Shown in pieces: positions 8,835 through 32,938 of a stretch of 40,341 bases of DNA. A program made the translations under genes and the position numbers. The stretch's first letter is position 1; each line of letters opens with the position of its first letter. This stretch comes from an uncultured Pseudomonadales bacterium. GTDB taxonomy: Bacteria > Patescibacteriota > Microgenomatia > UBA1400 > RBG-16-45-19. The notes below the pieces were generated by a model. That model saw nothing but the letters and a program-made list of their open reading frames with translations. It was not told where the DNA came from and searched no databases. The DNA is taken from assembly GCA_964554085.1 (NCBI GenBank), contig CAZKMY010000001.1, positions 4,949 to 45,289 on the forward strand, given 5' to 3'.

Positions 8835-8932
8835 TTTCCCTCAGATTCTAGCAAATTCAGCGCGCAATCATCCAAAGCTGAGCTTGCCGAAGCTGAAGGG
8901 CGTGAGCACTGCAATTTGCGAATCGAGGGAAA
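8835..8932 (+). repeat. Long imperfect hairpin repeat, copy R1 (termini TTCAGCGCGCAATCA ... GAAGGGCGTGAGCACTGCAA)
   Basis: Outer stem is TTTCCCTC (8835-8842) with GAGGGAAA (8925-8932). The next stem is GATTC-ta-GCAAATT with AATTTGC-GAATC. The interior holds gctgagcttgccgaagctgaagggcgtgagcactgc. Confidence 0.75.
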
Positions 8933-8938
8933 TTCCTC

Positions 8939-10654
8939 TCACTTCTTCTCGATATTATACAACCCTGATTTGATAGATATCTTACCCGGTGCCCGTAAAT
9001 TAAACGCTTTCTTCAAATCAGCTCCATCAATAGTCACCTTCCCCTTATCGGTATCAAACAATACATTTGCAGTCACTCCATTATCTGCATACGTCACCGA
9101 CACCCCTGTCACTCGACCATACCCTCCTCCATTGGCATTCGCCTTATCTCGCAATTCCCCAATTGAATAGGGATTTCCACCCCAACAACTCCCTGTCGGA
9201 GTCACCCGATCATCACTTTGTCCAGCTTTAATGAGTACCACCCACGCATTCAAAATATCTGCCATTTCTTCCGCAGAAAGCCACGGATGAGACTTTCCGC
9301 AACTATCTCCGCCACGATCCTTGTACCATCCCTTATAAAACCACGGGCTGCCTGCTTGTTTTTCCCATGCCTGGGCTGTCCAACCACTACGTCCCGATGG
9401 AGTATCCCAAAATCCCGGCGTTGTATGGCCTTGGGAAGAATAAGACATCTGATATCCTCCTGAAGTTGACGCGTACCAAGCAGAAAAGGGTTGACCATTT
9501 TTCACCAATACCCAACCCTTTGTATCATTAACTGCTTTTTCCCAATTCCCCCCTTTTGGACTCGATTTAAACACCTGACAACTTTCCGTTGCACAAATCG
9601 AACTAGACCCATTATTAGTTCTCGCTAACGCATAACTCCGAGCTGCCACGGCCTGTGCTCTAAGTGCCGCCATACCCCCATCATCTCCCCACGAGTTTGG
9701 TACTTCATAAATCCGCTTGGCATACTCTTCCAACGAATAGCTCCCTTGTCCATCAACTTTAATCTGAATATTGGTGTCATAATCTTTTTTAATTTCGATA
9801 TCGCCATAATAAGCGCGCAGAATTTCTTCTGCACTCTGACCTGCTTTCGCTCGCCCATATGCCCCGTACTGACTCATCCCCTTATAGTGAGGTGCCCCAA
9901 ACGAGAAGGCTGCAAATGCCGGGGAAAATCCCGGATTATAATCTGGTCGCGACGCCTTATCATCCGCGAGTGGCACATCACCAACTGTCGTTTGAAATGT
10001 ACCTGTCTTAGCGGATAAAATTTCTTGTTGTCGCTTCGACAACTCCGAAATTTTCCCCGACAATTGTGCCTGATAATCTTTCGCTTTTTTAATCTCTCCC
10101 GCAAAAAAAGTTACCGTTCCTTCAAATTGCGCCCGCATCGATGCCAACTGAGCTTTCCGTTTCTCCAATGCTTTCTTATCATTTTGCAGTTTCAGCAGCG
10201 CTTCGGTCGATTTCATAATAATCGATTTATCTTGATCAACCGCAGAAGTTCGATAGGTCAGTGACCGGGTTAATCCCGCCGCTGTGCCCGAGGACAAAAA
10301 GGTTACCAAGGGGGAAAATTGGCGCGATAGTTTGTAATAACTTCGCACTCGAGCGGCTAAATAGCGGTACTGTGCATCCAATTGCAATTCCCGTGCTTCG
10401 ATATCCCCCTCCAAATGCTGAGTTTCCACATCTGCCAGCGCCAAATCACTTTTAACCTTGGCAATCTTCGCATTAATCGACGAAACTTCTTTTTCCAGTG
10501 GAGTCGTTGCTGCCTCAGACAATTGTTTTAACCGTTGTAGGTCATCAATTTGTTTCTGTAACGATTCAATTGAATCCTCAGCAAAGACAGCTAACCGAGG
10601 AAACCAAAACACGCTCAGCACTATGACAAGTCCCAACACCCAAACTTTTTTCAT
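8939..10654 (-). CDS. Secreted SpoIID/LytB-domain protein with an N-terminal coiled coil
   Basis: Start chosen at ATG 10652-10654, giving the signal peptide MKKVWVLGLVIVLSVFWFPRLAVFA. A long heptad-rich segment follows, then the SpoIID signature ALRAQAVAARSYA. Confidence 0.7.
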   Translation of the reverse strand: MKKVWVLGLVIVLSVFWFPRLAVFAEDSIESLQKQIDDLQRLKQLSEAATTPLEKEVSSINAKIAKVKSDLALADVETQHLEGDIEARELQLDAQYRYLAARVRSYYKLSRQFSPLVTFLSSGTAAGLTRSLTYRTSAVDQDKSIIMKSTEALLKLQNDKKALEKRKAQLASMRAQFEGTVTFFAGEIKKAKDYQAQLSGKISELSKRQQEILSAKTGTFQTTVGDVPLADDKASRPDYNPGFSPAFAAFSFGAPHYKGMSQYGAYGRAKAGQSAEEILRAYYGDIEIKKDYDTNIQIKVDGQGSYSLEEYAKRIYEVPNSWGDDGGMAALRAQAVAARSYALARTNNGSSSICATESCQVFKSSPKGGNWEKAVNDTKGWVLVKNGQPFSAWYASTSGGYQMSYSSQGHTTPGFWDTPSGRSGWTAQAWEKQAGSPWFYKGWYKDRGGDSCGKSHPWLSAEEMADILNAWVVLIKAGQSDDRVTPTGSCWGGNPYSIGELRDKANANGGGYGRVTGVSVTYADNGVTANVLFDTDKGKVTIDGADLKKAFNLRAPGKISIKSGLYNIEKK

Positions 10655-10796
10655 ATTTCTTGTGTCTTGTATCTTCATAGGCAGTTGCACCGCGTCCCTC
10701 GTAACCCGCCATAGGCGGGTGAAGTGGGACTTCCCCATAATACCATTGAACCGCATCTTTTCCTCTTCCCAAGAGTCAAGGTATAATACGTCAAGC

Positions 10797-11300
10797 ATGT
10801 TACGCAAAAAAATACAATTCTTTCGTTTACTCATTATCGGAATTGTTGTTGTTGGATCACTATCAAGTATCACAACTCCTGTTATTGCCCTCAGTGAGAG
10901 TACTTCCGAAGCAAGTACAAGTGGAGTTGGAGGTTCCTCAAGTTGGTCTCATACTGCTGATTTTGACATGTGTAAAGGGGTCTCTGATGCTGGATGTCGC
11001 GATTGTGTAGGGGAGGACTACAAACACATGTGGACCGCTCTTGGTTGCATTCCCACTGATCCTAAAGAATTTACGACCGCATTTTTAAGAATCTCTATTG
11101 GTGTAGCTGGAGGAATCGCTCTTCTTCTCATGGTTTATGGAGCTTTTCTTGTTTCGGTTTCTGCGGGTGACCCCAAAAAAGCTGATGAAGGTAAAGAGAT
11201 TATTACGGGTACCATTGCCGGACTTTTATTTATAATCTTTTCTGTCGTTCTCTTAAAGCTTATCGGCGTTGATATCCTTCAAATTCCGGGGTTGAAATAA
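10797..11300 (+). CDS. Pilin-like protein P1: Cys-containing ectodomain fused to a VirB2/TrbC-like two-helix hairpin
   Basis: ATG 10797 follows TATAAT (10782-10787) by 9 nt. It has a signal/anchor MLRKKIQFFRLLIIGIVVVG and 4 Cys in CKGVSDAGCRDCVGEDYKHMWTALGC. The C-terminus GGIALLLMVYGAFLVSVSAGDPKKADEGKEIITGTIAGLLFIIF matches the paralogue motif. Confidence 0.6.
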   Translation: MLRKKIQFFRLLIIGIVVVGSLSSITTPVIALSESTSEASTSGVGGSSSWSHTADFDMCKGVSDAGCRDCVGEDYKHMWTALGCIPTDPKEFTTAFLRISIGVAGGIALLLMVYGAFLVSVSAGDPKKADEGKEIITGTIAGLLFIIFSVVLLKLIGVDILQIPGLK

Positions 11301-32146: not shown

Positions 32147-32166
32147 ACCTGCTGAAGGGCTAGATC

Positions 32167-32841
32167 ATGAACACTCTTCCTATTCGCGCCACCACCCAAG
32201 ACCACTTAGACATTGAGGACATTCTTCAAAACATTGTTCTTCTCAAAGATGGTGGGGCCGCCATGATTCTTCGCGTTGGTGCCGTCAATTTCAATCTTCT
32301 TTCTGAAGAAGAGCAGGATGCCATTATTTTTGCCTACGCCGCGATGTTAAATTCCCTCACCTTCCCCACCCAAATCCTGATTCGATCTCAACAAAAAGAT
32401 ATCACTAATTATCTCAAACTTCTTGAGAACCAAGAACACACCCAGGCAAACCCCCTCATGAGAAACCGCCTCAATTCCTACCGACAGTTTGTTGAGAATT
32501 TAGTTAAAGAACGGCGAGTTTTAGACAAAAAATGTTACGTCATTATCCCCTTCTTCCGCACCGAACTTGGCCTCGCTGCCCCCTCTTTTTCACTTCCTGG
32601 AAAAAAGAAGGAAAGTAAAGGACTTCCCTACAGTAAAACATACATTCTTGAAAAAGCGCTCGCCAGTCTCGAACCAAAACGGGATCATTTATTGCGCCAA
32701 TTCTCGCGCATCGGTCTCAATTCCCGACAACTATCCACCCGAGAGCTCATTGAACTGTTTTACGCTATCTACAATCCCAAATCAGCAGCTCCCGCACTTA
32801 CTTCCCAGTCGGACATTGCTCCTCTCACCCAATCCCGCTAG
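32167..32841 (+). CDS. Stand-alone protein resembling the N-terminal (non-ATPase) domain of VirB4-type proteins
   Basis: 224 aa. The layout HLDIEDILQNIVLLKDGGAAMILRVGAVNFNLLSEEEQ...FPTQILIRSQQKDITNYL...KKCYVIIPF parallels residues ~40-190 of the VirB4 ORF at 38446 (VSIRDIIAPEAIEV...SLDISMHIFPVDGKSIMDDL...YQFGLYVTIT). There is no Walker motif. Confidence 0.35.
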   Translation: MNTLPIRATTQDHLDIEDILQNIVLLKDGGAAMILRVGAVNFNLLSEEEQDAIIFAYAAMLNSLTFPTQILIRSQQKDITNYLKLLENQEHTQANPLMRNRLNSYRQFVENLVKERRVLDKKCYVIIPFFRTELGLAAPSFSLPGKKKESKGLPYSKTYILEKALASLEPKRDHLLRQFSRIGLNSRQLSTRELIELFYAIYNPKSAAPALTSQSDIAPLTQSR

Positions 32842-32866
32842 TTTTCCTCACTAAAAAACAGAGCGT

Positions 32867-32938
32867 AAACCCATCACTTTTCAGCACGCAGTCATCTGAG
32901 CAAAGCGAAGGCGCGAGCACCGCAAAAGTCGGTGGGTT
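32867..32938 (+). repeat. Hairpin repeat, copy R4
   Basis: Outer stem is AAACCCATCAC with GTCGGTGGGTT. Inside is acttttcagcacgcagtcatctgagcaaagcgaaggcgcgagcaccgcaaaagt. It lies between convergent genes. Confidence 0.65.

What the first reader, a model, noticed from the sequence alone, without database searches (positions are those of the whole stretch)
8835..32938. Family of long imperfect hairpin elements with conserved termini (4 copies, all in the same orientation)
The copies are at 8835-8932, 15146-15279, 16441-16494 and 32867-32938. They share a 5' arm TTTT(T)CAGCGCGCAATCA (variants TTTTAGGAGCGCAAGG and TTTTCAGCACGCAGTCA). They share a 3' arm GAAGG(G)CG(T/C)GAGCAC(T/C)GCAAAA. The arms can pair (TTTTT-CAG with CTG-c-AAAAA; CGCGC with GCGTG). 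Each encloses a variable GC-rich interior containing CTGAGC..(G)CGAAGG. R1, R2 and R4 have additional copy-specific outer stems, for example TTTCCCTC/GAGGGAAA around R1.

The contexts differ. R1 is inside a minus-strand operon. R2 is in a divergent promoter region. R3 is just upstream of the pilin-array promoter. R4 lies between convergent 3' ends. The behaviour is REP/MITE-like, but the plus-strand orientation is strictly conserved. ORF callers read through these elements and create false N-terminal extensions such as MQCSRPSASASSALDD.
Basis: seen in the sequence. Interest (0 to 1): 0.6.

Follow-up and report, generated by a model that had tools for sequence, protein, structure and literature searches.

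The report
Strand-locked mobile DNA hairpins in Microgenomates
The four hairpins are real copies of a small DNA hairpin repeat found in several lineages of ultra-small (CPR, Microgenomates) bacteria; every copy examined points the same way relative to the chromosome's C-rich strand, and some copies sit in frame inside essential genes, which suggests it acts as single-stranded DNA rather than as RNA.

Summary
The four window copies (R3 is 5'-truncated) belong to about 14 full copies plus partial ones in this 1.17-Mb genome. More than 55 further copies were found in other Microgenomates genomes and metagenome contigs.

**Anatomy.** A copy- or subfamily-specific AT-rich outer stem encloses invariant arms, TTTT(A/C)AGCGCGCAATCAT and GCGTGAGCACTGCAAAA. 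These enclose a variable inner hairpin whose closing pairs covary. The inner hairpin is often capped by a GCGAAGC or CCGAAGG "mini-hairpin DNA" motif on one strand only.

**Polarity.** In all 71 copies scored for local GC skew, that strand is the C-rich chromosome strand, whatever the direction of local transcription.

**Behaviour.**
- Copies sit in frame in nadD, nadE, leuS (reversed relative to the gene) and a glycosyltransferase.
- Close relatives differ in which sites are filled.
- The family occurs in only 27 of 401 genomes of the class.
- Shared copies stay nearly identical while their flanks are 71-87% identical.

**Negative results.** There is no Rfam match, no gene-carrying parent copy and no link to Y1 transposases.

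**Best reading.** It is a strand-polar, non-autonomous palindromic DNA element that acts as ssDNA and behaves like Rickettsia palindromic elements. The enzyme is unknown. The main rival is a host ssDNA priming-type signal.

The parts
8833..8934 (+). R1: full element. Outer stem ATTTCCCTCAGATTCTAGCAAATT / AATTTGCGAATCGAGGGAAAT. Core about 8853-8918 (CAGCGCGCAATCAT ... GCGTGAGCACTGC). It lies between two minus-strand genes, so it is antisense to them.
   Evidence: (E 1.1e-14); the same outer-stem subfamily occurs at C50:1462-1527 and, without most of the core, at C37:440-475
15146..15276 (+). R2: long variant. The core is 15168-15255, with an extra inner hairpin CCTGCCTCGCCGGCAAGGCGGG after AATCAC. 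Outer stem TTTTGCAG...GTTTTTT / AAAAAAAC...CTGCAAAA. It lies between divergent genes.
   Evidence: z -2.6/-3.5; E 1.5e-13; the same long interior occurs in L033
16441..16495 (+). R3: 5'-truncated copy. Only the distal inner hairpin and the 3' arm GGCGTGAGCACTGCAAAA remain. It has no stable hairpin of its own.
   Evidence: z +0.7; E 7.8e-6, model positions 19-54 only
32868..32938 (+). R4: short variant. The core is 32877-32929 (CAGCACGCAGTCAT CTGAGCAAAGCGAAGG CGCGAGCACCGC). Outer stem AACCCATCACTTTT / AAAAGTCGGTGGGTT. It lies 13 nt downstream of the dnaN stop codon, between convergent genes.
   Evidence: (E 3.3e-13)

Best explanation
The copies belong to a family of small (about 65-130 nt including stems), gene-less, strand-polar palindromic DNA elements of Microgenomates.

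**Structure.** Each element is one long imperfect hairpin with three layers.
- A variable AT-rich outer stem.
- Two invariant arms, which probably form the recognition module for an unidentified trans-acting protein.
- A freely exchangeable inner hairpin.

**How it most likely works (inferred).**
- The element acts at the DNA level, when its 'forward' strand (TTTT-M-AGCGCGCAATCAT...GCGTGAGCACTGC-AAAA) is single-stranded. Only that strand carries the nuclease- and heat-stable d(GCGAAGC)/d(CCGAAGG)-type cap and tolerates G.T and G.A pairs.
- New copies arise, or survive, only when this strand lies on the C-rich strand of the chromosome. On dnaA-bearing contigs this is the lagging-strand sequence in 15 of 16 copies. 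I therefore infer that gain or retention is coupled to replication.
- Insertions that fall in genes persist only if they are in frame and free of stop codons. They are then read as extra surface-loop residues, as with Rickettsia palindromic elements.

**Shown:** family membership, anatomy, covariation of the stems, polarity, in-frame genic copies, insertion polymorphism and patchy distribution.

**Inferred:** the ssDNA form, the coupling to replication, and the existence of a protein partner.
For: **Family and anatomy.** define the family and its layers. Covariation analysis on 46 distinct copies gives 78.7% paired cells against 69% in shuffles, and a covariation score of 0.296 against 0.139 (0 of 500 shuffles as high; slid controls at most 0.194). 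The inner-hairpin closing pairs switch between CG/GC and UA/CG and are 97.8% paired.

**Strand-specific folding.**
- Outer-stem mismatches are G.T 13 and G.A 23, against A.C 2 and C.T 1.
- Mini-hairpin motifs with a GNA or GNNA loop occur 30 times on the forward strand and 8 times on the reverse.
- Such motifs are much more stable as DNA than as RNA, and they mark ssDNA priming or promoter sites (PMC13037366).

**Polarity is independent of transcription.**
- 15 of 15 copies in this genome and 56 of 56 copies elsewhere (subsets) lie on the C-rich strand.
- The roughly 52 chance hits of the 18-mer search pattern have skew near 0, which serves as an internal control.
- R1 is antisense within an operon, the nadD and nadE copies are sense, and the leuS copy is reversed relative to its gene.
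- Genes are split evenly between the two strands, and both gene classes carry the skew.

**Mobility.**
- nadD is filled here and empty in the closest homologues.
- nadE is filled in the 1.29-Mb relative contig with a core identical in sequence to this genome's C21:5638 copy.
- The family occurs in 27 of 401 genomes of the class and is absent from the same genus and order.

**Not RNA.** No Rfam family matches at any threshold tried.
Against: - No enzyme is identified. No copy encloses a gene.
- Y1/HUH transposases are not enriched in element-bearing genomes. About half of them have hits, against 63% of the class overall, and G134 has six copies and no hit.
- There are no hits in viral contigs.
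- No target-site duplication or target motif could be defined.
- Orthologous copies in two genomes are almost unchanged while their flanks are only 71-87% identical. One is 74 nt with no change; the other has one change outside the swapped inner hairpin. This fits a host-level function or ongoing homogenisation better than a dead selfish insert.
- Under the usual skew convention the folding strand would be the leading-strand template, or equivalently the nascent lagging strand. It would not be the exposed lagging-strand template that IS200/IS605 uses.
- The GC skew of these genomes does not change sign at dnaA, so the direction of replication is itself uncertain.
Confidence: 0.55

Rival explanations
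1. The elements are host cis-acting single-strand DNA signals, for example primase or RNA-polymerase entry sites like the ssi signals of phage G4 or IncQ plasmids. They would be scattered in one orientation because one chromosome strand is regularly single-stranded. Genic copies would then be tolerated accidents.
For: - The apex is often CCGAAGG or GCGAAGC, the same mini-hairpin found in ssiA of IncQ plasmids and at the G4 priming site (PMC13037366, PMC8567376).
- The ssiA sequence I recalled from memory is confirmed at 100% identity in IncQ-type plasmids. Like the element, it has the hairpin followed by GCGTG, the triplet region where RepB' starts the primer.
- Polarity is absolute.
- The arms are invariant across distant lineages.
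- Orthologous copies are conserved far above their flanks.
- Copy number is low, 1-15 per genome.
- The chromosome-wide one-signed skew matches that reported for related Microgenomates (PMC7143001).
- DnaG is present.
Against: - The family is absent from most genomes of the class, including the same genus.
- Positions differ between close relatives, and copies land inside nadD, nadE and leuS.
- There is no RepB'-type primase in the genome.
- The folding strand is the C-rich one, whereas a habitually exposed strand is expected to become G-rich.
- The resemblance to ssiA rests on two short motifs.
Confidence: 0.2
2. The polarity is not set at insertion. It arises from survival: copies whose more stable hairpin strand lies on the lagging-strand template are deleted by slippage or hairpin nucleases, so only one orientation persists.
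For: - The two strands differ in predicted stability features.
- On contigs that carry dnaA, 15 of 16 copies have the stable strand as the lagging-strand sequence, that is, off the lagging-strand template. This assumes that forks leave a dnaA-adjacent origin in both directions.
- Orientation-dependent loss of hairpin-forming repeats is established knowledge from studies of palindrome and triplet-repeat instability (recalled from memory, not checked here).
Against: - It does not explain why no copy at all lies in the weak-skew 60% of this genome.
- It does not explain the copy in G134 on the other side of dnaA that has unchanged orientation.
- ViennaRNA energies of the two strands are similar.
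- It addresses only the polarity, not what the element is.
Confidence: 0.12
3. The elements are structured RNAs, such as a small RNA, a ribozyme, or a regulatory or terminator hairpin, transcribed from the forward strand.
For: - The two stems covary around conserved internal loops, and G.U and G.A pairs favour one strand.
- Hairpins fold somewhat better than shuffled sequence, with z from -2.2 to -3.5 for three of the four copies.
Against: - No Rfam match, even at E up to 10.
- Copies lie sense, antisense and between genes while keeping their chromosome polarity.
- There is no shared promoter, because the flanks are copy-specific.
- In-frame, stop-free genic copies indicate that they are translated rather than removed.
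- The cap motif is DNA-specific in its stability (PMC13037366).
- T-runs precede the stem rather than follow it, which is the wrong arrangement for an intrinsic terminator.
Confidence: 0.05

Closest known systems
Rickettsia palindromic elements (RPE; Ogata et al. 2000, as summarised in PMC10969869)
   Same: Both are gene-less palindromic repeats found between genes and, in frame, inside essential protein genes, where they add loop residues. Filled and empty sites differ between relatives. The mechanism is unknown in both.
   Different: The sequence family and host lineage are different. This element is smaller. Its arms are invariant across distant lineages, and its inner hairpin is exchangeable. 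It shows absolute strand polarity tied to GC skew, which to my knowledge (not checked in the literature here) is not a described feature of RPEs.
REP/REPIN-RAYT systems and IS200/IS605-derived palindrome-associated elements (PMC3116915, PMC2817692, PMC6006769)
   Same: Both are short imperfect hairpins thought to act as ssDNA. IS200/IS605 shows polarity linked to replication. A RAYT-like gene exists in this genome.
   Different: There is no GTAG tag and copy number is low. The RAYT-like gene carries a different hairpin. Y1 transposases are not enriched where the element occurs. The folding strand appears to be the opposite one to that used by IS608.
Single-strand initiation signals (IncQ ssiA/ssiB, phage G4 complementary-strand origin) with mini-hairpin DNA (PMC8567376, PMC13037366)
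   Same: Both are orientation-specific ssDNA hairpins capped by CCGAAGG or GCGAAAGC-type mini-hairpins. In ssiA, GCGTG lies just 3' of the hairpin.
   Different: The ssi signals occur once or twice at plasmid or phage origins and have a dedicated or known primase. Here there are 1-15 dispersed, insertion-polymorphic chromosomal copies, and no priming has been demonstrated.
Integron attC sites (comparison recalled from memory, not checked here)
   Same: Both are imperfect hairpins with conserved ends, bulged bases and a variable terminal structure. attC sites are recombined as one folded strand and share one orientation.
   Different: The element has no GTTRRRY/RYYYAAC cores, no cassette array and no integrase context.

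Membership tests
REP/REPIN-RAYT | A 20-40 nt palindrome with a conserved 5' GTAG/GTGG-type tag | tested here: not met
   The arms are TTTT(A/C)AGCGCGCAATCAT and GCGTGAGCACTGCAAAA, with no GTAG tag. A separate GTAGGGGCGCG...CGCGCCC repeat does exist in this genome.
REP/REPIN-RAYT | A cognate RAYT (Y1 transposase) gene flanked by the same repeats, co-occurring with them | tested here: not met
   The only Y1-like ORF (C4:16214-16744, 17 bits) is flanked by other hairpins. PF01797 occurs in 254 of 401 class genomes but in only about half of the 27 element-bearing ones, mostly as weak hits. G134 has six copies and no hit.
REP/REPIN-RAYT | High copy number, extragenic | tested here: not met
   There are 1-6 copies in other genomes and about 15 here. 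About 9% of copies lie inside genes.
Rickettsia palindromic elements (behavioural class) | A palindromic repeat inserted in frame in protein-coding genes as well as between genes | tested here: met
   In-frame copies occur in nadD, nadE of the close relative, and a glycosyltransferase, leuS and an fmt-like ORF.
Rickettsia palindromic elements (sequence family) | Sequence similarity to the RPE families of Rickettsia | not tested
   No RPE sequence was compared. The host phylum is different, so only the behaviour is claimed.
MITE | Terminal inverted repeats plus a target-site duplication | tested here: inconclusive
   The arms and outer stems are inverted repeats. No direct repeat flanks the copies. 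Instead, the flanks continue to be inverted complements of each other.
MITE | A parent IS with the same ends that encodes a transposase | tested here: not met
   No pair of arms lies 0.1-4 kb apart enclosing a gene, either in the genome or in 105 metagenome loci. The one apparent case (L086) is a chance 3' hit. There are no viral-contig hits.
IS200/IS605-type ssDNA elements | Orientation fixed relative to the replication strand | tested here: met
   71 of 71 copies lie on the C-rich strand. 15 of 16 copies on dnaA contigs are on the lagging-strand sequence. Which strand this is relative to fork exposure remains uncertain.
ssi (single-strand initiation) signals | A hairpin on one strand that directs primer synthesis by a primase or RNA polymerase | not testable with these tools
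   Only resemblance is shown: the mini-hairpin cap and the GCGTG after the hairpin (PMC8567376, PMC13037366). DnaG is present and RepB' is absent.
Any Rfam RNA family | A covariance-model match | tested here: not met
   There were 0 hits at gathering score on the window. Only noise appeared at E up to 10 on R2/R3 and on a consensus-like copy.

The most novel reading that the evidence does not exclude
The elements are functional single-strand DNA signals, such as priming or polymerase-entry hairpins, on the one chromosome strand that is treated differently in these bacteria. They would then be a visible part of whatever unusual replication or DNA-transfer mode produces the one-signed, chromosome-wide GC skew of these Microgenomates. 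In two genomes that skew does not flip at dnaA, and the hairpins follow it.
Probability: 0.17. Interest if true: 0.85.

Novelty: new variant of a known kind. Interest (0 to 1): 0.62.

Why it matters
**Genome annotation.** Small palindromic repeats that land in frame in essential genes are known mainly from Rickettsia. Here a comparable element occurs in ultra-small CPR bacteria. It causes false N-terminal extensions and 20-30-residue inserts in enzymes such as NadD, NadE and LeuRS.

**Mechanism.** Three features make this family more informative than an ordinary repeat:
- its arms are invariant across distant lineages;
- its cap is a motif known for DNA-specific stability at ssDNA priming sites;
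- its orientation is locked, without exception in 71 copies, to the unexplained chromosome-wide GC skew published for related Microgenomates.

It therefore offers a sequence handle on how the two chromosome strands are treated differently in organisms that cannot be cultured.

Tried and rejected
- **Rfam.** Gathering and permissive scans gave nothing.
- **Y1/RAYT partner.** The weak own-genome hit has different flanking hairpins. A Y1 gene beside nadD in one relative is flanked by unrelated TCTAACCTCCGAGGTTAGA hairpins. tblastn with both Y1 proteins against the 22 loci fetched up to that point found only the query's own gene. There is no enrichment across the class.
- **Autonomous parent copy.** None was found. 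The one distant arm pair (L086) is a partial 5' arm next to a LysM/M23 gene.
- **Viral contigs.** No match.
- **RepB'-type primase.** Absent.
- **Split-gene or intron idea for R1.** The flanking genes are unrelated, one SpoIID-like and one a tRNA-binding domain.
- **Mini-ORF idea** (ATGATTGCGCGCTGA on the reverse strand). The frame is not conserved between copies, as read directly.
- **Exact-pattern search of 59 relatives.** It found nothing because the pattern was too strict and the family is patchy. The covariance model later found copies in other families of the class.
- **Whole 1.29-Mb relative contig.** It could not be searched because the record is not held.
- **RSF1010 by accession.** Not in the plasmid collection; solved by a sequence search instead.

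
Full report
**1. Is it there?**

The four stretches read as described. The window is C1:4949-45289 of a 1.165-Mb, 135-contig genome with 43% G+C. 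A profile built from the clear copies finds 14 full copies at E 1e-13 to 7e-18, plus partial ones. These lie on C1 (four), C21, C24/C96 (a contig break inside a copy), C96, C61, C65, C73, C50 and C39.

R3 matches only with its 3' half and does not fold by itself. Its sequence is the distal part of the long R2-type variant, so it is a 5'-truncated copy. Chance and a single local duplication are excluded.

**2. Organism and setting.**

The NadD homologues are named Microgenomates, Beckwithbacteria or Chisholmbacteria, so this is a CPR/Patescibacteria genome.

The window contains the classical origin neighbourhood:
- dnaN, 32951-34063, minus strand
- dnaA, 34346-35809, minus strand
- rnpA, 36082-36402, plus strand
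- yidC, 36666-37439, plus strand

R4 lies 13 nt beyond the dnaN stop codon.

GC skew of the plus strand is negative everywhere in the window. Along the whole contig C1 it is about -0.22 on the dnaA-downstream side and about -0.08 on the other side, with no change of sign.

Genes are split evenly between the strands, and both gene classes carry the skew: -0.14 and -0.22 when measured on the C-rich strand. This matches the published observation that some Microgenomates (order UBA1400: Ch65, Collierbacteria, Beckwithbacteria) have one C-rich and one G-rich strand over the whole chromosome (PMC7143001).

**3. Anatomy.**

I aligned 46 distinct copies from this genome, from species genomes and from metagenomes. 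From the outside inward each element has:
- an AT-rich outer stem of roughly 10-20 bp, different in each copy or subfamily, closing with AATTTT/AAAATT;
- an invariant 5' arm, (A/C)AGCGCGCAATCAT;
- an inner hairpin of 7 to about 50 nt that differs freely between copies;
- an invariant 3' arm, GCGTGAGCACTGC.

*Stems.* The outer stem averages 16.8 Watson-Crick pairs, against 7.8 when flanks of different copies are paired. On the alignment the proposed structure gives the following:
- 78.7% paired cells, against 69% in shuffles;
- a covariation score of 0.296, against 0.139 (0 of 500 shuffles reach it) and at most 0.194 when partners are slid;
- two closing pairs of the inner hairpin that switch together (CG/GC and UA/CG) and are 97.8% paired.

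*Arms.* The possible pairing between the arms (CGCGC with GCGTG, AG with CT) never varies, so covariation says nothing about it. The arms are better regarded as a conserved recognition module with bulges (AATCAT, AGCA).

*Variants.* Some variants carry extra hairpins at two tolerated places:
- after AATCA, as in R2 and L033;
- inside the AGCA bulge, as in L054 and L067.

*Databases.* No Rfam family matches.

**4. One strand is special.**

Mismatches inside the outer stems are strongly asymmetric. On the forward strand they are G.T 13, G.A 23 and A.A 13. The types that would be wobble or G.A on the reverse strand number only A.C 2 and C.T 1. This runs against the genome-wide compositional trend, since the forward strand is the G-poor one, so mutation bias alone does not explain it.

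The inner hairpin is often capped by CCGAAGG, GCGAAGC, GTGAAAC, ACGAAGT or GCGACAGC. Two-base-pair hairpins with a GNA or GNNA loop occur 30 times on the forward strand, in 25 of 46 copies, and 8 times on the reverse.

These are the 'mini-hairpin DNA' motifs of Hirao and co-workers. They are extraordinarily stable and nuclease-resistant as DNA and much less stable as RNA. They are found at ssDNA priming sites (phage G4, St-1, alpha3), in ssiA of RSF1010 (CCGAAGG), and in N4 early promoters (PMC13037366).

**5. Polarity.**

*Link to skew.* In this genome all 15 full or partial copies, on 11 contigs, have the forward strand on the locally C-rich strand, with skew from -0.13 to -0.28. The same holds for 18 of 18 copies in species genomes, for about 50 of 50 in metagenome contigs, and for 56 of 56 in the combined non-redundant set.

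The roughly 52 chance matches of the 18-mer used for the metagenome scan lie in sequence with skew near zero of either sign. This is a useful internal control.

*Within contigs.* Orientation never changes; for example six of six copies over 130 kb of G134:C2 point the same way.

*Not linked to transcription.*
- R1 is antisense within a minus-strand operon, and the same subfamily is sense upstream of a gene on C50.
- The nadD, nadE and glycosyltransferase copies are sense.
- The leuS copy is reversed relative to its gene.

**6. Relation to replication.**

On contigs that carry dnaA, the copies upstream of dnaA have the dnaA-sense orientation. This applies to G114, G332, G134 (five copies), G259, G423 (two copies) and G153. 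The four window copies lie downstream of dnaA and have the opposite orientation.

If the origin lies beside dnaA and forks leave in both directions, 15 of 16 copies have the forward strand as the lagging-strand sequence. The exception is G134:83324.

The skew itself behaves oddly. In G134:C2 it is +0.14 on one side of dnaA and +0.27 on the other. In C1 it is -0.22 and -0.08. I read this as:
- a modest component that flips at dnaA (about 0.07);
- a larger component that does not flip (0.15-0.2) and whose sign relative to dnaA differs between the two genomes.

The elements follow the larger component. In this genome all 15 copies lie in strong-skew sequence, which makes up 40% of the bases. None lies in the weak-skew 60%.

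I cannot say which strand is physically exposed in these organisms. That is the main gap in the mechanism.

**7. Mobility and turnover.**

*nadD.* One copy lies in frame inside nadD (C21:4244-4298...PGFQRAIIRSEAKGVSTAKP...).
- The closest homologues (78-84% identity, 192-195 aa) lack the 26-residue insert.
- Three others carry inserts with the same ends but other interiors.
- More distant homologues carry unrelated inserts at the same loop.
- A second insertion hot spot exists later in the protein.

*nadE.* The nearest relative found is a 1.29-Mb metagenome contig. It has an empty nadD, but it carries a core identical in sequence to this genome's C21:5638 copy, in frame in nadE. This genome's nadE carries, at that same site, a divergent family member (TTTGAGCGC...GAGCACTCCAAA) preceded by AGTATGGAA-type short repeats.

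*Shared sites*.
- C96:2817 and L043:3278 are identical over 74 nt, while their flanks are 71% and 87% identical.
- The C24/C96 copy and L043:641 keep the arms and outer stems with one change but have entirely different inner hairpins.
- The nadE-rpmB spacer holds a clean copy here and a composite (a 5' arm plus a variant hairpin) in the relative.

So the arms and stems are held constant while the apex is swapped.

*Distribution across the class.* A covariance model finds the family in 27 of 401 genomes (19 of 295 genera), mostly in one family (f42). There are 1-6 copies per genome, and none in the same genus or order as this genome, which has the most copies. Named records include Shapirobacteria, Woesebacteria and UBA1372.

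This patchiness, together with identical arms, points to horizontal spread or repeated loss.

**8. What moves it?**

This is unknown.
- No copy encloses a gene.
- The genome's only Y1-like ORF (C4:16214-16744) is associated with a different GTAG-tagged repeat.
- PF01797 is common in the class (254 of 401 genomes) but is not enriched among element-bearing genomes.
- No viral contig carries the element.

No target-site duplication is visible. Beyond the subfamily-specific stems, the flanks continue to be inverted complements of each other. This suggests one of three things: insertion into existing palindromes, growth of the palindrome by template switching, or a mobile unit that is simply the whole long hairpin.

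**9. Best explanation and rivals.**

*Best explanation (0.55).* I commit to a strand-polar, non-autonomous palindromic DNA element that acts as ssDNA on its forward strand. Its gain or retention is coupled to the strand asymmetry of the chromosome. It is tolerated in genes only when in frame, as with RPEs.

*Main rival (0.2).* The elements are a host ssDNA signal of the ssi type.
- For: the cap motif; the GCGTG that follows the hairpin, as in IncQ ssiA (the ssiA sequence was verified, and its features are described in PMC8567376); the absolute polarity; the above-flank conservation of orthologous copies.
- Against: the patchy distribution, the insertion polymorphism and the genic copies.

*Third reading (0.12).* The polarity results from orientation-dependent deletion.

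*RNA function (0.05).* This is unlikely.

**10. Limits.**

- The relative's full contig could not be searched.
- Earlier notes of this scan describe other in-frame hairpin families in Microgenomates. One describes a strand-polar family in Shapirobacteria, and one places this same family in frame in a RimK-type ligase. I treated these as leads only. My literature searches found no published description of such elements in CPR bacteria.

Noticed in passing
window 32951-37439 and contig C1 as a whole: The dnaN-dnaA | rnpA-yidC origin neighbourhood lies in the window. GC skew does not change sign across it. It only weakens, from about -0.22 on the dnaA-downstream side to about -0.08 on the other side. 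G134:C2 shows the same kind of step at dnaA, but with the opposite strand relation to dnaA.
   Followed up: partly
whole genome (contigs of 5 kb or more): Contig |GC skew| looks bimodal, with one group around 0.03-0.09 and another around 0.15-0.24. All 15 element copies lie in the strong-skew 40% of the bases and none in the weak-skew 60%.
   Followed up: partly
G000 C4:16214-16744 and C4:16745-16810: A RAYT-like Y1 ORF (HUH motif HHIHFI, YYEH tyrosine region; 17 bits to PF01797). A GTAG-tagged hairpin, GTAGGGGCGCGGTCTTCGCGCCC, occurs both inside the ORF (read as VGARSSRP) and just downstream. Two more copies are at C1:48957 and C43:4007.
   Followed up: partly
G000 C21:5636-12660: A 3512-bp stretch (rpmB-like gene, M50 peptidase, two further genes) is present twice in tandem, with element copies at the junctions. 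This may be a real duplication or an assembly artefact at the repeat.
   Followed up: no
G000 C21:4985-5120 (nadE) and C21:12500-12700: A composite insert made of four AGTATGGAA-like short tandem units followed by a divergent hairpin of the same superfamily (TTTGAGCGCGCAGCC...GAGCACTCCAAA). It occurs once in frame in nadE and once beside a tRNA gene.
   Followed up: partly
L012:10695-11369: In one relative a Y1_Tnp gene has inserted between nadD and nadE, which overlap in other genomes. It is flanked on both sides by TCTAACCTCCGAGGTTAGA-type hairpins, which looks like an IS200-like unit.
   Followed up: partly
alignment A1, columns about 195-235: NadD homologues show a second site, after LQLLK, where unrelated low-complexity inserts of 7-30 residues occur in several lineages.
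   Followed up: no
window 14713-15108 (-): A small protein with a weak transposase-type helix-turn-helix (PF01527, 25.7 bits) lies directly beside R2, divergent from an ECF sigma factor gene.
   Followed up: no
L054 and L067: These variants carry an extra hairpin (CCTGTCCGCCTCTGGAGGA) inserted exactly in the AGCA bulge of the 3' arm. This shows that the bulge tolerates a third helix.
   Followed up: no
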